DNA of 64,000 bases from a virus. Lineage: Duplodnaviria > Caudoviricetes. This document shows positions 28,746 through 43,182 of the stretch, in pieces. The stretch spans positions 1 through 64,000 of IMG/VR virus record IMGVR_UViG_3300009671_000009; one strand, written 5' to 3'. Numbering within the stretch: position 1 is the stretch's first letter; each line of letters opens with the position of its first letter. The notes beneath the pieces are model-generated. The model was not told the origin of the DNA. It did not search any database and worked only from the letters and a program-made list of their open reading frames with translations. The position numbers and the translations under genes were made by a program.

Positions 28746-29119
28746 TAGTACCAGACAGGTGAAAATTCTAGGCCAGAAGAAGTAATCCTTGCCGCACAAA
28801 ATCTGGTGGTGCGATTAGAAAGTGTTCCAACGGCTCCAGTAGTAGGCCATGGACAAACCTGGAGTGACGCAGTCTGGTACTATTAAAGAAGTTCTGTCGT
28901 TCAGCCCCAAGAAATCCTCGCATGCTATTGAGGATTTTAATTCTAGGAGGACGCGCTTGCCCTAGCATAAGGGCCATACGGCGTATGCAGATGCAAATCC
29001 TGCCAGAACTTCGTAGTAGAGAGACTTCTAGCTTAAAAAGTAAAGCGCCTGCTTTCAATAGCAGGAGATAGTGGTGGGGCCGCAGATGCTGCCGCAATCC
29101 ACTGTTGTCTCTCTATCTA
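28746..29119 (+). ncRNA. three tandem structured RNAs, the last two expanded tRNA-like folds
   Basis: closing stems 28746/28882, 28888/29012, 29014/29119; D-, anticodon- and T-arm-like elements with hairpin insertions. Confidence 0.55.
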
Positions 29120-29273: not shown

Positions 29274-29350
29274 GGCCCTATCGTCTAGTGGCTTAGGACA
29301 TATCTCTTCTCGGAGATAAGACTGAGATTCGAATTCTCATGGGGCTACCA
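29274..29350 (+). tRNA. tRNA-Glu(CTC)-like, 8-nt anticodon loop
   Basis: TATCT-CTTCTCGG-AGATA; Glu-type D arm; CCA. Confidence 0.75.
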
Positions 29351-30858: not shown

Positions 30859-30959
30859 GGGGGTTTCGTCTAGCGGAGACTATGTCTGCAGAGACAAGGT
30901 CATAGGACATTCACCTTCTCGGGTGAAAGATGTGAGTTCGAATCTTACAACCCCTACCA
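30859..30959 (+). tRNA. tRNA-Glu(CTC)-like with D-loop hairpin insertion and 8-nt loop
   Basis: TTCAC-CTTCTCGG-GTGAA; about 24-nt insert in the D loop; CCA. Confidence 0.7.
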
Positions 30960-32288: not shown

Positions 32289-32317
32289 TTGACAAAAGTA
32301 ACAAAGCATGGTAGAAT
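32289..32317 (+). promoter_or_regulatory. sigma-A/70 promoter driving the Y-RNA-like array
   Basis: TTGACA-17-TAGAAT with extended TG, 7 nt before unit 1. Confidence 0.85.
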
Positions 32318-32324
32318 AGGAAAT

Positions 32325-32390
32325 GTGAGGCGTTTAAGAAGAGCTACTTCGATTTGGACGAAACACGGCTTTTCTAGCAATTTTCCTCAC
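32325..32390 (+). ncRNA. Y-RNA-like unit 1 (cargo: anticodon-like stem-loop, TTG)
   Basis: GTGAGGCG..TACTTCG...TTTTCCTCAC. Confidence 0.75.
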
Positions 32391-32408
32391 GTATAATAAG
32401 TATATAAG

Positions 32409-32552
32409 ATCAAATGAGGCGTTTTGTGGCGATACTTCGACTTTTTTAGCTAAAGAGGGGTCTGGGTTCGAATCCCAGCTTACAGGGAAACCTGCATGTG
32501 GTGTAACGGGAGCACGTAAAAGGACGCGTCACTACCTTTTTCCTCATTTGAT
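32409..32552 (+). ncRNA. Y-RNA-like unit 2 (YrlA-like permuted tRNA domain)
   Basis: scaffold plus T arm CTGGG-TTCGAAT-CCCAG, GAAA-capped acceptor, D arm. Confidence 0.8.
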
Positions 32553-32566
32553 TTAAATAAGATTAC

Positions 32567-32709
32567 AACTGAGGCGTTAGAAAGAGTTACTTCGCATTAG
32601 GAGCGCGGCTGTGGAGGTTCAAGTCCTTCTCCCCTGACCAATTTTATATCAGGGGATAGCTTAACTGGCAGAGCACGTAAACGTTACTTTTTCGCTATTT
32701 TCCTCAGTT
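32567..32709 (+). ncRNA. Y-RNA-like unit 3 (complete permuted tRNA with internal CCA, TAG loop)
   Basis: scaffold plus T arm, TCCCCTG-A-CCA, linker, CAGGGGA-TA-D arm. Confidence 0.85.
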
Positions 32710-32718
32710 AAGTTTAAC

Positions 32719-32813
32719 AAATGGGGCGCTTGATTGGGATACTTCGAGGATTATCAAATCTTCACCAGGGCGGCAGCCGACATACATGCACCTAGCCTAT
32801 ATTTACCCCATTT
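32719..32813 (+). ncRNA. Y-RNA-like unit 4
   Basis: compensatory GGGG/CCCC outer stem; CG-N11-TACTTCG. Confidence 0.75.
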
Positions 32814-32827
32814 AAATAAGCTCAATA

Positions 32828-32969
32828 ACAGTGAGGCGTCAGATAGAGTTACTTCGTTGCAGCCAAAAATTGCGATATAGTTTAACACTGGTTAAAACAC
32901 CAGGGAAACCTGGAGAATTCGGTTCAAGTCCGTCTTAATAGGAACTTTGTCGCCCATTTACCTCACTGT
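32828..32969 (+). ncRNA. Y-RNA-like unit 5 (tRNA permuted at the T-arm/acceptor junction)
   Basis: scaffold plus GTTGCA-G-CCA, TGCGATA-TA-D arm, GAAA-capped anticodon stem, T arm. Confidence 0.8.
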
Positions 32970-32976
32970 AAATTTT

Positions 32977-33108
32977 AAACTTGGGTGTCGGTTACATACC
33001 GACAGGGAAACTAGATAGGGACGTGCCGCCCCTAATAACCTACCATTACCCGTTCTACTGCTTCTAGTGCTGTAGGTAGACGCTGTGAAAGTCAGCAAGC
33101 CCAAGTTT
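32977..33108 (+). ncRNA. structured RNA inside the array lacking the Y-like scaffold
   Basis: AAACTTGGG/CCCAAGTTT closing stem, several internal hairpins. Confidence 0.55.
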
Positions 33109-33124
33109 TTATAAAGTTTAATAG

Positions 33125-33340
33125 TAAGCGAAGCGCTTGAAGGGGTTACTTCTTAATTCTAAAAGATGAATTGGTTTAGAAGGAAACTTCTATCTCAAGC
33201 ACGACGGGCGGGTGCCACCCCGATATAACGGCATGGCTGCGTGAGCCAAGAGCGCTTTCACCCTAATGGCCTCCTTTCCCAAGTTAAGGCCCCTTTCGAG
33301 GATAATGGGTGGGTTCCCTCTTCACTAATTTCTTCGCTTA
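33125..33340 (+). ncRNA. Y-RNA-like unit 6 (large non-tRNA cargo)
   Basis: compensatory GAAG/CTTC outer stem; CG-N11-TACTTC. Confidence 0.75.
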
Positions 33341-33386
33341 TTTAAGTTTCCCTTGATGGGTTTCCATTATAAGCATCACTCCTTCA

Positions 33387-33485
33387 TAACTAAACGAGGC
33401 GACAGTAAGGGATACTTCGCACAAGAACCTGGCCTAGAGCTTGGTAAAAAAACGAGCCTTTACAGCCATTTCCCTCGTTTAGTTA
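33387..33485 (+). ncRNA. Y-RNA-like unit 7
   Basis: TAACTAAACGAGG/CCTCGTTTAGTTA; GTAAGGG/CCTTTAC. Confidence 0.8.
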
Positions 33486-33548
33486 CGTAATCAAAGTGAG
33501 ATTTTACCTCGCTTTAAAATAAAAGTTTGTCCACTAAATTATACAACT

Positions 33549-33623
33549 AGAGAGGCGTCAGTCAGGGATACTTCGATAACTGTTAATTATCTAAAAAGGG
33601 CCTTGGCAAACTTTTTCCTCTCT
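33549..33623 (+). ncRNA. Y-RNA-like unit 8 (cargo: bare Asn anticodon stem-loop)
   Basis: scaffold plus GATAA-CTGTTAA-TTATC. Confidence 0.8.
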
Positions 33624-33637
33624 CGATAAAGTTCAAC

Positions 33638-33780
33638 AATCGAGGCGACAGAGAGCGTTACTTCGCCTGTTAAGCCGTAGGTCGTAGGTTCGAATCCTCC
33701 CGCCCCCGTCAAATTATATGGGGGTGTAGCTCAGTGGATAGAGCAACGTAAACGTACGTTCTCGACCTTTTCCCTCGATT
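33638..33780 (+). ncRNA. Y-RNA-like unit 9 (complete permuted tRNA, GTT loop)
   Basis: scaffold plus CTGTTAA loop, T arm, CGCCCCC/GGGGGTG acceptor, D arm. Confidence 0.85.
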
Positions 33781-33790
33781 AAAAAAATTC

Positions 33791-33931
33791 AGATGAGGCG
33801 ACAGTAAGGGATACTTCAAAGGAAATCAGCGTGTCGTGGGTTCAAGTCCCACTCCCCTGACTAATCAGGGGGTAGCTCAGTTGGCAGAGCAACCGACAAT
33901 AAAGAGGCCTTTACAACCATTTTCCTCATCT
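33791..33931 (+). ncRNA. Y-RNA-like unit 10 (YrlA-like permuted tRNA domain)
   Basis: scaffold plus GTGGG-TTCAAGT-CCCAC, TCCCCTG/CAGGGGG, D arm. Confidence 0.85.
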
Positions 33932-33948: not shown

Positions 33949-33990
33949 AACGGGAGTGGTCTATCTAAAGGTAGATTGCTCACGTTTTTT
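33949..33990 (+). terminator. hairpin plus T-run between the array and the Ro60 gene (terminator or attenuator)
   Basis: AACG..GAGTGGTCTATC/GGTAGATTGCTC..CGTT then TTTT. Confidence 0.5.
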
Positions 33991-34016: not shown

Positions 34017-35519
34017 ATGGCAAGAGTAAAACAAATGTTTGGCACTCCGCAAATTCCTGTTGCGGACACCACGAATCGTGATGGGTATGATGCTTACACC
34101 CGAAGCATCTACGAGCAATTCGTTCAAACTCTGTTCTGCAATACACTGGGTAATACCTACTATGCAGACAGCAAAGAAATGCTCAAAGAAGCCAGCAAAG
34201 TGCACCAAGACATGCTGAAGGAAGACAAGTTCTTCTTTGCTGACGCGCTACCCGTAGCACGCCAAGAAGGGTGCATGAAACTTCAACCTGTCTATGCTCT
34301 GTCTTTGTTAGCTGCAACCGACCCAGGCTTGTTTGAAAAAACATTCCCTGGAGTGGTATTGATCCCATCCGATCTCCAAGACTTCATGACTATCCTTGAT
34401 AGTGCTGGTCGTGGACAAGGTGGCCGCGCTGTAAAGCGAACAGTTGCCAACTGGATGAATGAAAAGATGTCCGAATACTGGGCGATTAAATACGACGGTG
34501 ACGCTCGTGGCTATTCTCTCGGTGATTTGGTTCAGACCATTCATCCGAAACCTAAGAACAGCTTTGTCTCTGGTCTTTATGGTTACTTAATCGGCTCAGA
34601 AAAGGTTAATCTTGCAGAGTACAAGCAGTTAACTGCTTATCAGGCTCTGAAGAAGACGACCGATCCGAAGGAACAGATTCGTCTGGTGCGCGAAGGCAGA
34701 CTTCCCCACGAAGTCGTGACTGGCGTAACCAAAATGAGTCCCGACCTTTGGGACGCTCTTGTCCAAGATATGCCTGTCTTTGCTACCTTACGTAACCTGA
34801 ATGCCCTGGATAGGGTTGGTGTCCTCGACAAAAATCGTAAGATTATCGAAGAGAGACTCACCAATCCTGAAATACTGGCTAAGTCCAAGATTCTGCCGTT
34901 CAGGTTCCTAAATGCCTTCGACAACGTATCCAAGGCGTGGGTCAAAGATGCTCTACGGTCGGCGGTTGAAGCTACCTTCAATAACCTACCTGAGATCTCT
35001 GGCAAAACTGCGATCTTCTTGGACGTCTCTGGGTCGATGAGCGGAGAATATTTGAAGATCGGTTCGGTCTTCGCAATAGCTCTCTACAAAAAGACTCGTG
35101 GCAACGGTTTGTTCTGGTTGTTCGATACTCGTGTATTTGATGGACAACCTTCATTGCATGATTCGATCTTAACCCAAGCAAACAAAATCCACACCAGAGG
35201 CGGCACCAATACAGGTGCTCCGATGCGAAAATTATGGCAAGACCGTGAAAAAGTAGACAACATCATCATGATTACTGATGAACAGCAAAACACTGGGAAT
35301 CCGTTTTATGGTGAGTTAGCTGAATATCGGAGACACATTAACCCGAATGTAAAAACATTCATTATTGATATCTCTGGTTATCGGCAAGCCATGGTTCCTC
35401 AAGGCGATCCGAATACTTTCTACATCTACGGATGGTCGGATCAAGTCCTCAACTATATTTCAATGGCCTCCAAAGGCTTTGGAACTATCGTTGATGCGAT
35501 CAAAGCCAAAAGAAAGTAA
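34017..35519 (+). CDS. rsr: Ro60/TROVE domain RNA-binding protein (Rsr) with C-terminal vWA
   Basis: TNRDGYDAY, NTYY, MP..ATLRNLN, ILPFRFL.A, vWA DVSGSM and ITDEQ, GWSD. Confidence 0.93.
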   Translation: MARVKQMFGTPQIPVADTTNRDGYDAYTRSIYEQFVQTLFCNTLGNTYYADSKEMLKEASKVHQDMLKEDKFFFADALPVARQEGCMKLQPVYALSLLAATDPGLFEKTFPGVVLIPSDLQDFMTILDSAGRGQGGRAVKRTVANWMNEKMSEYWAIKYDGDARGYSLGDLVQTIHPKPKNSFVSGLYGYLIGSEKVNLAEYKQLTAYQALKKTTDPKEQIRLVREGRLPHEVVTGVTKMSPDLWDALVQDMPVFATLRNLNALDRVGVLDKNRKIIEERLTNPEILAKSKILPFRFLNAFDNVSKAWVKDALRSAVEATFNNLPEISGKTAIFLDVSGSMSGEYLKIGSVFAIALYKKTRGNGLFWLFDTRVFDGQPSLHDSILTQANKIHTRGGTNTGAPMRKLWQDREKVDNIIMITDEQQNTGNPFYGELAEYRRHINPNVKTFIIDISGYRQAMVPQGDPNTFYIYGWSDQVLNYISMASKGFGTIVDAIKAKRK

Positions 35520-35564: not shown

Positions 35565-35894
35565 GTGAGAACATTGGATAGTAATTGGATATATGAAATG
35601 CAAAACAATCTAGTTCACAAGTGCTATCATTGTTATGAACAGCATAAAAGTGAAACTAAAATGACACTAAAATCGCAACATAAAGATAAAGTTATAGCCC
35701 AATGCTGTTATCTTACTTATCTGTGTAAACATTTTTACCACATTGATAATATAACTGATCAAGCTTTCTATGATGATTGTTTAGATCACAACAGGCTAGG
35801 AACGTGCACTGCGTTTGTTAAAAAGAAACCTCCTGTACCGTTTAAGATAAAGTTACTTCGATGGTGGAAAAGGAAATTTGGCAATGTTCACTAA
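35565..35894 (+). CDS. hypothetical protein
   Basis: ORF rich in Cys and His. Confidence 0.5.
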   Translation: MRTLDSNWIYEMQNNLVHKCYHCYEQHKSETKMTLKSQHKDKVIAQCCYLTYLCKHFYHIDNITDQAFYDDCLDHNRLGTCTAFVKKKPPVPFKIKLLRWWKRKFGNVH

Positions 35895-36687
35895 ACTTAT
35901 AGATAAATATCTCAACGACATCTTTACTCCAGAGCAGCAGAAGATAGACCATGTGTCAAAATTTGTAGACTTTATCTATAGGCAACCTCAAGGAAACGCC
36001 GAGGTGTCTAGAAAGGTTAAAGGAAGCCAATATAACCAAGCGCGTCTATCTGTTGGATTCTGCCACAATACTTTAGAAAGTCTATTTAGAGTAATCAAGT
36101 TTCTCTCGGGTATCGAGGGAGTAAACTTAGATCCTATGTTGGAATTTTTACTTCAATCAGATCAATCACAAATCCAACTGATAGTTTTTGGTCTAGAGCT
36201 GGGAGCCTCTGCCAGCAAGACACGATATAAAGTTCACATTCAGTATTACAAACATCCTCGAATCGTGGATGTTATATTGAACAATCCCTGCTCTAATCCT
36301 AAATCGTTTAATTTCTTACCGTTTGGAGAAGCCACTGTGGGATTTGATTTATTTCTGGATGGAAGAACAGAATATCGGGTATATGTTTCATTCGATACTC
36401 CGCAACGGTATAAACTTTTATTCGGAAGATTCTTTGAGCCACATATTGTAGATGCCCTATATCGTTCGGAAAACGCATGGCTTGCCTGGAAAAACAGCAA
36501 CTCTGAAACATTTGTTTATTTCCTGGATGATAAGTTAGATCCAATAATTGATAGTTTACAATTTGAGGATCTAGACCAGAATATGTTGGACTTTAATGGA
36601 ATTCGTCCTTATATTTTTGGTACAACTCTTTCTGACTTACAAACTAGGAAACTTAACGAATATAATATTTATTTTTCATTAGCTTAA
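35884..36687 (+). CDS. possible LynF/TruF/PatF-like (ABBA-fold) prenyltransferase
   Basis: VFGLEL....SKTRYKVHI and VGFDLFLDGRTEYRVY resemble remembered family motifs. Confidence 0.45.
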   Translation: MFTKLIDKYLNDIFTPEQQKIDHVSKFVDFIYRQPQGNAEVSRKVKGSQYNQARLSVGFCHNTLESLFRVIKFLSGIEGVNLDPMLEFLLQSDQSQIQLIVFGLELGASASKTRYKVHIQYYKHPRIVDVILNNPCSNPKSFNFLPFGEATVGFDLFLDGRTEYRVYVSFDTPQRYKLLFGRFFEPHIVDALYRSENAWLAWKNSNSETFVYFLDDKLDPIIDSLQFEDLDQNMLDFNGIRPYIFGTTLSDLQTRKLNEYNIYFSLA

Positions 36688-39737: not shown

Positions 39738-39998
39738 ATGGATCCCATAACTCTATTGGTCATGGCAGGAGTTGCCTTTGGAGTCAACGTAGTATGTGAT
39801 AAGGTTGACTTTTTAAGGAATATTACTCACAGTCGAGTAATGAGTGCTTCCACCGAAGAGCTAATCAAACAACTCAAGGGAGTACAAACTAACCCCGAAT
39901 TATTTACAGCCATGGTAAGTAGCAAAGAAGGAAGAACACTAGATGAAACTACTTGTGGGTTTAACCCCCCAAAGGACAGCATTAACACTCAGCTTTGA
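39738..39998 (+). CDS. hypothetical protein
   Basis: AGGAGAGG RBS. Confidence 0.55.
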   Translation: MDPITLLVMAGVAFGVNVVCDKVDFLRNITHSRVMSASTEELIKQLKGVQTNPELFTAMVSSKEGRTLDETTCGFNPPKDSINTQL

Positions 39999-42900
39999 TT
40001 ACAATCCTGCCATCATTACTCGGCTCAAGAACCGAGTTTATGGGCGTGCATATGATGGAGATCTAAAATGCTGGGTGTTGCCATTAGCAAGCTTTGACGA
40101 TCTTGTTCAAGAGTTTGGAGCAATGATTGAATTAACTGTGCCATTTAAAGAAATAGTGGAGGCTATAGATAGTATTGCCCCAGTAGTTGGTACTGTTGAT
40201 ATGCAAGCAGCTCAAGTTTTAAAACTAAAACCCTATGACTATCAAATTATAGGAGGAGCGGCGTTTCTTCCTAATATTAAATGTGGAATACTGGCAGATG
40301 TGCCAGGGTTAGGTAAGTGCCTAACGCCTGACTCTCGCATTTACATGAATGGTGCTAATACTACACTTCAGCAAATATGGGATAGCTATGTACGAGAATT
40401 GTCTTTTGACGGAGAAGGATATTGGTCTTCTCCGTCAAAAGACCTGTATGTTCCATCGTTGGACAATGGCAAGTTAATATATTCTAAGGTTAAACGAATA
40501 TATCGACAATGGATAGATGCACCCATCAAAGTCATAAAACTCACAAATGGTTCTGTTTTGAGAGCAACATTAACTGAAAAATTATTCGATGGCTATAGCT
40601 GGAGCAATAATTTGCAACCTGGAGATTGTGTAGCTATTCCAAATGTATTGCCTGATTTCAAACACAATATTAATGCGCAGTCGCAAATCGTGAAACTAAT
40701 TGCATGGCAACTAGCTGAGGGACACGAAGCTTCCCATGGCCACAGTTTCAGGATATATCAAGATAATATTGATGTATTGAACCATATAGCAAGTTTATTA
40801 TCCTATTTGAATATTCAATTTGATATAAAGCATGAACCTGGGAAATGTCCATATATAAGAGGCCGTAGTAAAGAATATCATAATATAATGACTAGTTATG
40901 ACTACGCCTGGGGAGCCAAGTCTAAAGACAAAAGAATTCCTAGCTTTATTTTTAATTTGCCTGACAAACTGCTACGGACTTTTCTTTCGGTCTTTTTTGA
41001 CGCAGAATCAAATGTTAATGTGTCAACTAGCAACATGGAAATAACAAGTGCTTCTTCTGAAATAATATTTGGTATTAAACAACTCTTGCTTCGTTTTGGC
41101 ATTAAAATGAATACTGCAGAATACATGAAATGTGCCACTAACGGAACAAGAATTAAAAGAAAATATTACAGAGGATATGTCTCTGGAGAAGACCTTGTGA
41201 GATTTTATCATACTATAGGCTATTGCTACGAATATAAAATGTCTGCATTGTCAAAGGTAGCCAATAAAAAACATAATAGCAACATATATGTATATCCAAT
41301 TAAAAAAGCATTTGAGAACTTCACAGATTCTGTGAAGATTCCTCCAAGATATTTCAAGTACAGGAAAGATTACTTGACTACAAATAAACTACCTAGTATA
41401 GATGGCTTAAGAAAGATGTCAAAAGGTTTTGATTATGTATTGTCTGGAGAAGCTGAATCAGACTATAAGAAGCTAAAGCCTAGTAAATGGACAGTCAAGA
41501 CCTTGGAATCTTTCAAAAACGCAGATTACTTACAAATTGCCAACGTAAAAGATAAAATAAATCATTTTTTGCACAGTGACGTAGCATATGTACGAATAGA
41601 CTCAATAAGCTATGAACAATATTCTGGCTGGGTATATGATTTGGAAATAGAAAATACTCACAACTTTATTGCAGAAGGAATGTGTGTTCATAATACAATT
41701 CAGACATTTTTGGGCTTTGCTTCACTGTGTGAGCGAGGCTTAGCCCAAAAGTGCCTTGTCTTTTGCAAAGCAAACCTGAAATCGCAGTGGTTGTCAGAGT
41801 TAGAGAAATTTACTTCTTACAAAGGAATCAAAATCAAAGGAACACCAGAACAAAGGCTTGCTTTGTACGAGGAGGCAGCAAAACCTGAATATCAGTTTAT
41901 ATTTGTTAACTACGAATTCCTGATTCATGACAAAAAATATGTTAAAGAGTGCGAACGCAAGACCAAAGAAAATGAAAAGCTAAAAGCGGCAGGTAAGAAA
42001 ACTAAAAGAGCCGCGAAGGGCTTTGACGATTTCGAGAATCTAGAATATCTAATGAGGCAGTGTCAAGTCCTTGTAATGGACGAGGCCCAAAAAGTAAAGA
42101 ATGATTCATCTCAAATTCATAAGAATCTGTTTAAAATGGTATATGGCACGAAAACATATCCATCGATACCGCCAGAATACCGCTGGCTACTAACAGGAAC
42201 CCCAATTGAGAATGAACCTGAAGATATTTATAACTTATTTAAGTTTGTAAACCAGTCCGTACTTGGACATAATCCAAATACCTTCAAATACCGTTATTAT
42301 GAAGGAAGGTACCACGAAAAAGTAAGAAAAGACATGCTTAAAGACCTCAGTATGAGGATCGCACCGTATATGTTACGGAGAACCCAAGAAAATGTCAAAC
42401 GAGCGTTTCCTAAAGTCCGTATTGATGAAATGCTTCTAGACATGACAAATGATCAAATTATCTTACATGATATTCTTAAAGAAATTACTAGGGATCTTAT
42501 AGATGGTGTAAAACACCCTGAAATAGGAAACGATGATTATTCACCAATCGGGATATTTAGTTTGTTGCTAAGAGTTGCAGATAATCCTGATTTGCTATTT
42601 ACATCTGAAAGTGACCTGGCTAGAAGTCTAGCTAAGAAACATTTAAAAACTCCTGGGCATGAATGCCCTAAAATAGAATGGATATGCGATTACTTAGAAG
42701 CACGCAAACAATTTGAACCTGATGCAAAGACCATTATATTTACCAGAAGTGATGATATGGCACATCTTACACGCGAATCATTACTTCAAGGTACTTACAA
42801 AGACAACGATATCATCTTGTTTGTAGGAGGCATGTCCGAGAAACAGCGGGATACAGCAAAGGCAAGATTTTGGAAAGACGGAAAGATCTTTATATCAACT

Positions 42901-43182
42901 GATGCTGGTTCGGAAGGGCTTAACCTCCAATGTGCCAACGTGGAAATCAACATTGATCTTCCGCCTACTCCGTCAAGACTTGCACAGAGAATTGGCCGCA
43001 TTAAACGAGATCAATCTGAGTTTTCACATGTTAGGATTATTAATCTTATTTCAAAAGATTCTATAGATGAGCGAATCCTCAAAATAATCTATGATAAACA
43101 ATCTATTATTGACAGTGTCATTGAAGGTAATATTGCAGACATCAATCTTACGCAAAGCGTGCTTCTGGAACTACTGTCGTAA
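39943..43182 (+). CDS. SNF2-family helicase containing an intein
   Basis: LADVPGLGK|T, DEAQ, LLTGTP.EN, STDAGSEGLNLQ, QRIGRI.R. Confidence 0.92.
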   Translation: MKLLVGLTPQRTALTLSFDYNPAIITRLKNRVYGRAYDGDLKCWVLPLASFDDLVQEFGAMIELTVPFKEIVEAIDSIAPVVGTVDMQAAQVLKLKPYDYQIIGGAAFLPNIKCGILADVPGLGKCLTPDSRIYMNGANTTLQQIWDSYVRELSFDGEGYWSSPSKDLYVPSLDNGKLIYSKVKRIYRQWIDAPIKVIKLTNGSVLRATLTEKLFDGYSWSNNLQPGDCVAIPNVLPDFKHNINAQSQIVKLIAWQLAEGHEASHGHSFRIYQDNIDVLNHIASLLSYLNIQFDIKHEPGKCPYIRGRSKEYHNIMTSYDYAWGAKSKDKRIPSFIFNLPDKLLRTFLSVFFDAESNVNVSTSNMEITSASSEIIFGIKQLLLRFGIKMNTAEYMKCATNGTRIKRKYYRGYVSGEDLVRFYHTIGYCYEYKMSALSKVANKKHNSNIYVYPIKKAFENFTDSVKIPPRYFKYRKDYLTTNKLPSIDGLRKMSKGFDYVLSGEAESDYKKLKPSKWTVKTLESFKNADYLQIANVKDKINHFLHSDVAYVRIDSISYEQYSGWVYDLEIENTHNFIAEGMCVHNTIQTFLGFASLCERGLAQKCLVFCKANLKSQWLSELEKFTSYKGIKIKGTPEQRLALYEEAAKPEYQFIFVNYEFLIHDKKYVKECERKTKENEKLKAAGKKTKRAAKGFDDFENLEYLMRQCQVLVMDEAQKVKNDSSQIHKNLFKMVYGTKTYPSIPPEYRWLLTGTPIENEPEDIYNLFKFVNQSVLGHNPNTFKYRYYEGRYHEKVRKDMLKDLSMRIAPYMLRRTQENVKRAFPKVRIDEMLLDMTNDQIILHDILKEITRDLIDGVKHPEIGNDDYSPIGIFSLLLRVADNPDLLFTSESDLARSLAKKHLKTPGHECPKIEWICDYLEARKQFEPDAKTIIFTRSDDMAHLTRESLLQGTYKDNDIILFVGGMSEKQRDTAKARFWKDGKIFISTDAGSEGLNLQCANVEINIDLPPTPSRLAQRIGRIKRDQSEFSHVRIINLISKDSIDERILKIIYDKQSIIDSVIEGNIADINLTQSVLLELLS
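40318..41694 (+). mobile_element. intein with LAGLIDADG homing endonuclease (459 aa)
   Basis: CLTPDS...VYDLEI..THNFIAEG.CVHN|T inserted in Walker A. Confidence 0.92.

What the first reader, a model, noticed from the sequence alone, without database searches (positions are those of the whole stretch)
32567..33780. Units 3 and 9 carry complete circularly permuted tRNAs that keep the anticodon arm
Seen: rejoining the halves of unit 3 gives CAGGGGA TA GCTT AACTGGCA GAGC A CG|CGC ATTAGGA GCGCG GCTGT GGAGG TTCAAGT CCTTC TCCCCTG A CCA. Unit 9 gives GGGGGTG TA GCTC AGTGGATA GAGC A ACG|GC CTGTTAA GCCGT AGGTC GTAGG TTCGAAT CCTCC CGCCCCC G TCA. Both have a perfect 5-bp anticodon stem made from the two ends, with the scaffold inserted in the 5' strand of that stem. 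The breakpoints differ by one position, and an AT-rich linker joins the 3' end to the 5' end. Unit 3 pairs a Pro-like acceptor (C1-G72, A73) and short variable loop with a TAG (Leu) anticodon. Known: canonical YrlA has no anticodon arm. Inference: RNase P plus 3' trimming could give an aminoacylatable two-piece tRNA, or cleavage and ligation could release a mature tRNA.
Basis: partly seen in the sequence, partly recalled or inferred. Interest (0 to 1): 0.85.

Follow-up and report, generated by a model that had tools for sequence, protein, structure and literature searches.

The report
Phage Y RNAs carrying whole rearranged tRNAs
Two small RNA genes in front of a jumbo phage's Ro60 gene are Y RNAs whose cargo is a complete, back-to-front tRNA copy, anticodon hairpin included; the same design occurs in hundreds of phages and bacteria, but published descriptions of this RNA family say it has no anticodon loop.

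Summary
Each is a Ro60-type Y-RNA handle carrying a circularly permuted tRNA with T arm, 7-bp acceptor stem, D arm and a 5-bp anticodon stem interrupted in its 5' strand (after position 28 in unit 3, after 29 in unit 9).

The split stem is not chance. In 196 distinct related units from phage contigs and bacterial genomes, pairs 27:43, 28:42 and 31:39 are kept in 95-98% through many compensatory changes. The loop is 7 nt with U33, R37 and A38. Two thirds of the loops are identical to real tRNA anticodon loops carrying the same triplet.

These are YrlA-type Y RNAs. They lie upstream of rsr on the same strand, here and in 161 of 161 related units where an rsr match was held. Chen et al. 2014 saw this hairpin and called it a variable ("V") arm; later work says YrlA lacks an anticodon loop.

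RNase P cleavage plus CCA addition has a precedent in M. smegmatis YrlA, and units 3 and 9 show the matching features. Nothing supports charging or release of a mature tRNA: most relatives have closed acceptor stems and the triplet is hypervariable.

This scan found the same design earlier on other DNA.

The parts
32289..32317 (+). Promoter-like site heading the whole Y-RNA array
   Evidence: It matches 11 of 12 consensus positions with an extended -10 TG, and is the only strong site in the region.
32568..32708 (+). Unit 3: complete Y-RNA unit (handle plus permuted tRNA)
   Evidence: Sequence. Scores 69 bits with family model R1 (the unit was in the training set) and 18.6 bits with Rfam YrlA.
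32568..32592 (+). Unit 3, 5' strand of the Ro60-type handle, ending in the conserved junction motif
   Evidence: One of 9 copies of the scaffold motif in the window. It pairs with 32678-32708.
32593..32607 (+). Unit 3 anticodon hairpin: positions 29-31, 7-nt loop with triplet UAG, positions 39-41, then 42-43, which pair with 27-28
   Evidence: homologous columns covary.
32608..32640 (+). Unit 3 variable loop, T arm, acceptor 3' strand, A73 and encoded CCA
   Evidence: CCA is enriched at this place in the family.
32641..32649 (+). Unit 3 AT-rich linker ending in U at -1; candidate RNase P and 3'-trimming site
   Evidence: U at -1 in 18 of 31 long-linker relatives. That it is processed is inference.
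32650..32677 (+). Unit 3 acceptor 5' strand, U8-A9, D arm, position 26, positions 27-28
32678..32708 (+). Unit 3, 3' strand of the handle
   Evidence: Forms an 8-bp helix and a 6-bp terminal helix with 32568-32592.
33640..33778 (+). Unit 9: complete Y-RNA unit (handle plus permuted tRNA)
   Evidence: Sequence. Scores 76.5 bits with R1 (the unit was in the training set) and 32.6 bits with Rfam YrlA.
33665..33678 (+). Unit 9 anticodon hairpin: positions 30-31, 7-nt loop with triplet GUU, positions 39-43
   Evidence: The loop is identical to the commonest real tRNA-Asn loop in the same data.
33679..33711 (+). Unit 9 variable loop, T arm, acceptor 3' strand, G73, then TCA (no encoded CCA)
33712..33719 (+). 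Unit 9 AT-rich linker ending in U at -1
33720..33748 (+). Unit 9 acceptor 5' strand, D arm, position 26, positions 27-29 (break one position later than in unit 3)
   Evidence: The same register is seen in relatives where position 41 is C: the third D-side base is G in 7 of 9.
33954..33981 (+). Terminator-like hairpin between the array and rsr
34017..35519 (+). Ro60/Rsr orthologue (TROVE and Ro60 vWA domains), the presumed protein partner
   Evidence: Pfam TROVE at E 9.8e-17; Ro-like proteins matched in 416 phage records.
26227..27654 (+). Phage CCA-adding enzyme (context: could complete the 3' end of unit 9)
   Evidence: Pfam PolyA_pol head, RNA-binding, tRNA_NucTran2_2 and HD domains.

Best explanation
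Units 3 and 9 are YrlA-type Y RNAs. They are transcribed as part of one array from the promoter at 32289, and their conserved handle is expected to bind the phage Ro60/Rsr protein encoded just downstream. The cargo of each is a full tRNA mimic in circularly permuted order. The handle joins at a three-way junction inside the anticodon stem. A local 2-3 bp hairpin with a 7-nt anticodon-type loop follows, with no unpaired base between, on the 2-3 bp formed with the bases after the D arm. Together they make a tRNA-like 5-bp anticodon arm. Unlike most relatives, these two units have an open acceptor end: a 7-bp stem, a discriminator base, CCA or TCA, and an AT-rich linker ending in U. They are therefore probably cut by RNase P, trimmed, and (unit 9) CCA-tailed, like M. 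smegmatis YrlA. That would give a two-piece RNA held together by base pairing and still attached to the handle. The likely role is Ro60-tethered mimicry of particular tRNAs, presented to some factor that reads tRNA shape and anticodon loop. It is not decoding. Shown here: the sequence anatomy, helix covariation, Ro60 linkage and tRNA-like loop rules. Inferred: transcription, Rsr binding, coaxial stacking, processing and function.
For: Anatomy. The same 21-nt spacing class is the commonest in an unbiased phage scan (37 of about 140 units). Covariation: 27:43 paired in 186/196 (CG 147, GC 23, AU 8, UA 5); 28:42 in 188/196 (UA 100, CG 62, GC 21); 31:39 in 193/196 (AU 99, CG 64, UA 20, GC 10). Both split pairs form in 183/196 units against a shuffled mean of 76. 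The tool count on 110 sequences gave 98.2% paired for the split helix, with changes on both sides, and 0 of 500 shuffles reached the observed values. Loop rules in the unbiased sample: U33 31/37, R37 35/37, A38 33/37. 163 of 240 loops are identical to a loop used by real tRNAs with that anticodon; after permuting positions 32 and 37 the mean was 130 and the maximum 145. Ro60 linkage: an rsr match lies in 155/238 held loci, always on the same strand (161/161 units), and the unit is upstream in 135. In the window the array ends about 90 nt before rsr. Processing precedent: M. smegmatis YrlA is cleaved by RNase P and receives CCA in vivo. CCA sits at 74-76 in 25/188 relatives against about 2% expected, and U is at -1 in 18/31 long linkers. 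The phage encodes a CCA-adding enzyme. Against decoding: the bodies are only 65-72% identical to any tRNA of the phage, and the triplet changes 5-10 times faster than the body in close pairs.
Against: There are no expression, binding or processing data for this phage. The proposed fold is 10-12 kcal/mol above the predicted minimum-energy fold for both units. The Rfam YrlA scores (18.6 and 32.6 bits) are far below the family cut-off of 69, as they are for all 16 related loci tested. ARAGORN still of 196 rejoined relatives after the hairpin is shuffled, so its tRNA call says little about the anticodon arm. The loops are not a faithful sample of tRNAs: A36 and C36 are nearly absent and G37 follows G36 almost always, unlike real tRNAs in the same DNA. 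That pattern could reflect a binding motif rather than anticodon mimicry. Whether the hairpin stacks as an anticodon arm or sticks out like a variable arm cannot be told from sequence.
Confidence: 0.7

Rival explanations
1. Two-piece working tRNAs. After RNase P cleavage and CCA completion, units 3 and 9 are aminoacylated (unit 9 by AsnRS) and act in translation or another aminoacyl-transfer reaction while still carrying the handle.
For: Unit 9 combines a GUU triplet with G73, the two elements I recall as tRNA-Asn identity elements in E. coli (my own knowledge). Unit 3 encodes ACCA. Both have 7-bp acceptor stems with U at -1. Chen et al. raise possible aminoacylation of cleaved M. smegmatis YrlA.
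Against: Among GUU-loop relatives with long linkers, the discriminator is G in only a minority, and among UAG loops A73 occurs in 3 of 6. 122 of 196 relatives have closed acceptor loops. A bulky handle in the anticodon stem would probably clash with the ribosome (inference). The phage already has ordinary tRNAs for both anticodons.
Confidence: 0.08
2. True permuted tRNA genes. The handle is only a processing helix, and cleavage plus ligation releases standard tRNA-Leu(UAG) and tRNA-Asn(GUU), as for the permuted tRNA genes of the red alga Cyanidioschyzon merolae.
For: The gene order is 3' half, linker, 5' half, and the rejoined sequences are called tRNAs.
Against: The phage genome has no RtcB-type ligase. 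Bacteria are not known to have a splicing endonuclease, and no bulge-helix-bulge motif is evident (inference). The handle is conserved, Ro60-linked, and shared with units that carry no tRNA. Most relatives have closed acceptor stems. The triplets are hypervariable.
Confidence: 0.03
3. The hairpin is a variable-arm-like structural element or protein-binding loop, as labelled 'V' in 2014. Its likeness to anticodon loops is partly coincidental. The meaningful signal is the 36-38 motif (UAA, GGA or AGA), not a triplet.
For: Chen et al. modelled it as the V arm. A36 and C36 are nearly absent, and A36 is followed by G37, unlike real tRNAs. Positions 34-35 vary as if unconstrained.
Against: The hairpin lies 5' of the 42-43 strand, and a normal 5-nt variable loop of the RGGUC type follows. 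The loop is 7 nt with U33. Positions 32 and 37 match the triplet as in real tRNAs beyond permutation controls. A34 is depleted, as in real tRNAs.
Confidence: 0.12
4. Functional sub-hypothesis: the anticodon loops are decoys or sentinels for anticodon-loop-specific enzymes, such as host anticodon nucleases or modification enzymes, displayed on Ro60.
For: The triplet is hypervariable on a conserved body. Handle-only units display just an anticodon hairpin in the same array (units at 32324-32391 and 33550-33622) and in relatives L007 and L008. The context is tRNA-rich and includes a CCA-adding enzyme.
Against: No nuclease, target or phenotype is known. The same design is common next to chromosomal rsr genes of many bacteria, not only in phages.
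Confidence: 0.2

Closest known systems
YrlA (Y RNA-like A; Rfam RF02553; Chen et al. 2014, PMC4201824; Salmonella structure, bioRxiv 10.1101/312249)
   Same: Encoded beside rsr on the same strand. Has a Ro60-binding handle plus a circularly permuted tRNA-like domain with conserved T and D arms, an acceptor-like stem between them, and a Levitt-pair swap (A15:U48 in unit 3, G15:C48 in unit 9).
   Different: The published model and structure have no anticodon loop, and the hairpin upstream of the T arm was labelled a variable arm. Here it completes a 5-bp anticodon stem with a tRNA-type 7-nt loop. The units score far below the Rfam cut-off. Ten or so units form one array.
M. smegmatis YrlA (Chen et al. 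2014)
   Same: Has a 7-bp acceptor stem that is opened: RNase P cleaves it in vitro, and cleavage plus CCA addition occur in vivo, giving two fragments.
   Different: From the primer sequence quoted in the paper, it appears to lack the full anticodon hairpin; I could not verify this. Unit 3 encodes its CCA.
Mycobacteriophage and Streptomyces phage Y RNAs next to Ro-like genes (Phabba, BRock)
   Same: The family model finds units with an anticodon-type hairpin just upstream of the Ro gene. Phabba also has ACCA after a 7-bp acceptor stem.
   Different: The Ro proteins are only about 23% identical to the window's, and these phages have single or double units rather than a ten-unit array.
Circularly permuted tRNA genes of Cyanidioschyzon merolae (Soma et al. 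2007; from my own knowledge)
   Same: The 3' half precedes the 5' half, joined by a short linker that must be removed to free the acceptor ends.
   Different: Those are matured through a circular intermediate into ordinary tRNAs. Here the outer ends are a conserved Ro60 handle, and no ligation machinery is evident.
Two-piece tmRNA from permuted ssrA genes (alpha-proteobacteria, some cyanobacteria; from my own knowledge)
   Same: A permuted tRNA-like gene is processed into two base-paired pieces with a chargeable CCA end.
   Different: tmRNA has no anticodon arm (SmpB replaces it) and is known to be charged. Charging is untested here.

Membership tests
YrlA-type Y RNA | Encoded within a few kb of a Ro60/Rsr (TROVE) gene, on the same strand | tested here: met
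   The array at 32324-33930 lies directly upstream of the TROVE ORF at 34017-35519. Relatives are on the same strand in 161 of 161 units.
YrlA-type Y RNA | 5' motif GNCGAAN0-1G thought to contact Rsr | tested here: inconclusive
   The units carry a related but not identical GGCG-N3-G motif at the equivalent place. Binding was not tested.
YrlA-type Y RNA | Permuted tRNA-like domain: T arm, acceptor-like stem, then D arm, with tRNA-invariant bases | tested here: met
YrlA-type Y RNA | Score at or above the Rfam RF02553 gathering cut-off (69 bits) | tested here: not met
   18.6 bits (unit 3) and 32.6 bits (unit 9). None of the 16 related loci reached it either.
YrlA-type Y RNA | Physical association with Rsr | not testable with these tools
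   Needs co-immunoprecipitation.
Functional tRNA | Cloverleaf with 7-bp acceptor, 4-bp D, 5-bp anticodon and 5-bp T stems and a 7-nt anticodon loop with U33 | tested here: met
   Met only after rejoining the halves. ARAGORN's call is not sensitive to the anticodon arm.
Functional tRNA | Contiguous gene giving one chain with free 5' and 3'-CCA ends | tested here: not met
   The halves are in reversed order and the outer ends continue into the handle.
Functional tRNA | Identity elements consistent with the anticodon | tested here: inconclusive
   Unit 9 has GUU with G73. Unit 3 has UAG with A73 but a short variable loop. Across relatives there is no consistent coupling.
Permuted tRNA gene (C. 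merolae type) | 3' half upstream of 5' half, joined by a removable linker | tested here: met
Permuted tRNA gene (C. merolae type) | Termini form a processing motif that is cut and ligated to give a circular intermediate and then a standard tRNA | not tested
   The termini are the conserved Ro60 handle, and the phage has no RtcB. I did not search formally for a bulge-helix-bulge motif. RNA data are needed.

The most novel reading that the evidence does not exclude
The anticodon hairpin of this large Y-RNA class is a swappable 'address'. A conserved Ro60-bound tRNA body displays a fast-evolving triplet, flanked by the correct 32, 33, 37 and 38 context, to mimic chosen tRNAs (mostly those reading ANN and CNN codons). 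It would act as a decoy or tripwire for anticodon-loop-specific nucleases or modification enzymes in phage-host conflict and bacterial RNA-damage responses. Units 3 and 9 would be the variants that also expose a tRNA-like CCA end.
Probability: 0.2. Interest if true: 0.85.

Novelty: new variant of a known kind. Interest (0 to 1): 0.6.

Why it matters
The effector that the tRNA-like domain of bacterial Y RNAs recruits is unknown a decade after YrlA was described, and the structural literature says the domain has no anticodon loop. In a large subclass of phage and bacterial units, the 'V' hairpin turns out to be a faithful anticodon-arm mimic on a split stem. Its triplets change much faster than the body. 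This points the search for the partner toward factors that read anticodon loops: modification enzymes, synthetases and anticodon nucleases. It also gives testable predictions in tractable systems such as M. smegmatis cluster-C phages and Streptomyces phage BRock. For units 3 and 9, the open CCA-type end makes it possible to test directly whether a Y RNA can be charged.

Tried and rejected
1. Rfam on the window gave only sub-threshold YrlA hits. It also gave a chimeric 26-bit tRNA hit at 33720-33859 that joins the unit 9 5' half to the unit 10 3' half; this is an artefact of tandem permuted units.
2. Single-sequence folding does not recover the cloverleaf. The proposed fold is 10-12 kcal/mol above the minimum, so I relied on comparative evidence.
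3. ARAGORN on rejoined relatives called 188 of 196. I rejected this as a test of the anticodon arm, because 159 of 196 are still called after the hairpin is shuffled.
4. Recent origin from the phage's own tRNAs is rejected: best identities are 65-72%, and not to the cognate tRNAs.
5. A protein-pattern search for close Rsr relatives in viral contigs found nothing. DNA pattern scans worked instead.
6. A nucleotide search of cultured phages found only tRNA-like fragments.
7. Coupling between anticodon and discriminator, as a sign of charging, is not consistent.
8. The supplementary alignments of Chen et al. 2014 are not held. The equation 'V arm = this hairpin' therefore rests on the paper's text and on finding the hairpin in a mycobacteriophage of the kind they analysed.
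9. The family-model hit at genome 87626-87709 is two adjacent ordinary tRNA-like genes, not a Y RNA.
Full report
WHAT IS THERE

The window is the first 64 kb of a 224,466-bp phage record with terminal repeats. Between 32324 and 33930 on the + strand lie about eleven small units. They share a 5' handle motif (9 copies against 0.01 expected by chance) and a T-rich 3' partner strand. One strong promoter-like site precedes them (32289-32317). A terminator-like hairpin follows (33954-33981). A 500-residue ORF with TROVE and Ro60 vWA domains then starts at 34017. This is the layout of Y RNAs beside Ro60/Rsr.

The order in each is:
- handle 5' strand
- a short hairpin with a 7-nt loop
- a 5-nt variable loop
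- T arm
- 7-nt acceptor 3' strand and discriminator base
- CCA (unit 3) or TCA (unit 9)
- an AT-rich linker of 9 or 8 nt
- acceptor 5' strand, U8-A9, D arm, position 26
- two (unit 3) or three (unit 9) bases that pair with the bases just after the hairpin
- handle 3' strand

Rejoined, the two units are called tRNA-Leu(tag) and tRNA-Asn(gtt).

IS IT MORE THAN CHANCE?

Single-sequence evidence is weak. The proposed fold is 10-12 kcal/mol above the predicted minimum. ARAGORN also tolerates a shuffled anticodon hairpin in 159 of 196 rejoined relatives. The decisive evidence is comparative.

A scan of viral contigs that required only the junction motif and a T loop showed that a 21-nt spacing, the one in units 3 and 9, is by far the commonest class. 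Two more specific scans found the class in at least 89 further viral contigs and at least 115 bacterial contigs. The bacteria include Streptomyces, Rhodococcus, Paenibacillus, Cohnella, Bradyrhizobium, Bacteroidota, Verrucomicrobiota and Acidobacteriota.

In 196 distinct parsed units:
- Pair 27:43 forms in 186.
- Pair 28:42 forms in 188.
- Pair 31:39 forms in 193.
- Each pair shows three or four different Watson-Crick types.
- Both split pairs form together in 183 units, against a mean of 76 after shuffling partners.

These three pairs were not used to select or parse the units. The tool count on a 110-sequence alignment gives 98.2% pairing for the split helix, with changes on both sides in both pairs. 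Sliding the partners drops pairing to about 40%.

The one-position-later break of unit 9 is also a recurrent register. Where position 41 is C rather than G, the third base after position 26 is G in 7 of 9 units. L008, the locus whose Rsr is closest to the window's (57% identity), has that register with two compensatory pairs relative to unit 9.

IS THE HAIRPIN AN ANTICODON ARM?

- Topology: it lies 5' of the strand that pairs with positions 27-28. A normal 5-nt variable loop of the RGGUC type follows. No base separates positions 41 and 42, so coaxial stacking into a 5-bp stem is the natural reading; this is inference.
- Loop rules: in the unbiased sample, U33 occurs in 31/37, a purine at 37 in 35/37 and A38 in 33/37, while A34 is rare.
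- Match to real tRNAs: I compared the loops with 1,235 tRNAs called in the same DNA. 163 of 240 Y-RNA loops are identical in all seven bases to a loop used by at least 10% of real tRNAs with that triplet. Permuting positions 32 and 37 gives a mean of 130 and never more than 145. The unit 9 loop is the commonest real Asn loop.

The mimicry is selective. Positions 36-37 are UA (121) or GG (50) in 171 of 196 units. A36 and C36, which make up 38% of real tRNAs, are nearly absent. G37 follows G36 far more regularly than in real tRNAs. I have no explanation for this selectivity.

WHAT KIND OF RNA IS IT?

It is a Y RNA of the YrlA kind. An Rsr homologue is found in 155 of 238 held loci using one distant query. 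It is always on the same strand (161 of 161 units), with the unit upstream in 135.

Chen et al. 2014 (PMC4201824) described YrlA as a Ro60 handle plus a permuted tRNA-like domain. [quoted passage not shown] The structure paper states that YrlA 'lacks the anticodon loop' and a free CCA end. None of the 37 papers in the library that mention YrlA describes an anticodon mimic.

The Rfam model gives units 3 and 9 only 18.6 and 32.6 bits against a cut-off of 69. It misses all 16 related loci tested. A model built here (R1) finds the same design next to the Ro genes of cultured phages: Streptomyces phage BRock, and mycobacteriophage Phabba, which also has ACCA after a 7-bp acceptor stem. Phabba belongs to the group of Ro-encoding mycobacteriophages that Chen et al. 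analysed. The hairpin has therefore been in published sequences but was read as a variable arm.

HOW IT PROBABLY WORKS

The array is probably one transcript that is cut into units; this is inference from the single promoter.

Most relatives close the acceptor stem with a loop of 6 nt or fewer (122 of 196). For them the tRNA copy, anticodon arm included, must act as a shape and not as an amino-acid carrier.

Units 3 and 9 belong to the minority with long linkers. In that group:
- CCA at 74-76 occurs in 7 of 31 units, and in 25 of 188 overall, against about 2% expected.
- U at -1 occurs in 18 of 31.

M. smegmatis YrlA, which has a 7-bp acceptor stem, is cleaved by RNase P in vitro and is cleaved and CCA-tailed in vivo. 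The phage encodes its own CCA-adding enzyme. I therefore expect units 3 and 9 to become two-piece RNAs with a tRNA-like end.

I do not expect them to decode, for these reasons:
- The handle sits in the anticodon stem.
- The bodies follow the family consensus and are not copies of cognate tRNAs.
- The discriminator does not track the triplet across relatives.
- The phage has ordinary Leu(tag) and Asn(gtt) tRNAs.
- No RtcB ligase is encoded that could release a mature tRNA.

A POINTER TO FUNCTION

In close pairs (body divergence under 10%; 13 pairs, some sharing sequences), the triplet differs at 0.29-0.39 per site against 0.04-0.08 for the body. Some Bradyrhizobium units with almost identical bodies show GCU, GUU, GCG, GUG or CAU.

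The same array also holds handle-only units that display just an anticodon-type hairpin: 33550-33622 with the Asn loop and 32324-32391 with a UUG loop. L007 and L008 do the same. The anticodon hairpin thus behaves as an exchangeable module. This fits a decoy, sentinel or recruiting role toward something that reads anticodon loops, but no partner is known.

EARLIER WORK IN THIS SCAN

Follow-ups on other genomes reached matching conclusions:
- A bacterial YrlA with a Lys-like anticodon hairpin whose triplet is not conserved.
- A mycobacteriophage Y RNA interrupted inside the anticodon stem.
- A planctomycete Ro60-RtcB array keeping anticodon loops.
- A soil-phage Y RNA with an encoded CCA and a long spacer.

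My tests here agree with them independently. They add the 36-37 rule, the match of positions 32 and 37 to the triplet, the CCA and U(-1) statistics, and the triplet hypervariability.

VERDICT

The structural interpretation is supported. The processing idea is plausible and has a published precedent. Charging and tRNA release are unsupported. The units are a new variant of a known kind (YrlA-type Y RNAs).

Noticed in passing
window 32324-32391 and 33550-33622; L008:1305-1375; L007:2705-2780: Handle-only Y-RNA units whose whole cargo is an anticodon-type hairpin. The loops read UUG (32324-32391) and GUU (33550-33622, L008 and L007). A rough scan suggests more such units in bacterial loci, some with A36 loops such as GAA, GUA and CCA.
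   Followed up: partly
family-wide (alignment A1): Positions 36-38 of the Y-RNA loops are almost always UAA or GGA, or AGA when 36 is A. Loops with A36 or C36, 38% of real tRNAs in the same DNA, are nearly absent. The mimics therefore copy mainly tRNAs that read ANN and CNN codons. I have no explanation.
   Followed up: partly
L334, L295, L301, L277, L245, L253 (Bradyrhizobium contigs): The Y-RNA bodies are nearly identical (2.5-7% divergence) but carry different triplets (GCU, GUU, GCG, GUG, CAU). Position 37 switches A/G in step with position 36 in the first three.
   Followed up: partly
window 33792-33930 (unit 10) and 32413-32548 (unit 2): Permuted tRNA-like units in the same array without a clean anticodon hairpin. 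Unit 10 has the best Rfam YrlA score (34 bits). Unit 2 has an acceptor stem capped by GAAA.
   Followed up: partly
same genome, C1:82337-82412 and C1:83630-83706 (outside the window): The phage's ordinary tRNAs with Leu anticodons (taa, tag) are only 76-77 nt long and have short variable loops. This is unusual, since bacterial-type tRNA-Leu has a long variable arm. The taa copy has C1-G72 and A73, like unit 3.
   Followed up: no
same genome, C1:87599-87740: A tRNA with a CTA (amber-reading) anticodon, followed after 6 nt by what looks like the 5' part of another tRNA-like gene. It gave sub-threshold hits to both the YrlA model and my family model.
   Followed up: no
window 29274-29350: ARAGORN calls a tRNA with a two-base 'anticodon' (ct). 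Together with weak Rfam tRNA hits at 29022-29111 and 30859-30956, this points to odd tRNA paralogues in the cluster.
   Followed up: no
window 39943-43182: A SNF2-family helicase ORF interrupted by an intein with a LAGLIDADG homing-endonuclease domain.
   Followed up: no
window 35878-36687: An ORF just downstream of rsr matching DUF5838 (E 3.8e-10). Another first-stage note reads it as a cyanobactin-type prenyltransferase.
   Followed up: no
window 33720-33859: Rfam's tRNA model gives a 26-bit hit that pairs the 5' half of unit 9 with the 3' half of unit 10 across 82 inserted bases. Tandem permuted units can fool tRNA finders in this way.
   Followed up: yes
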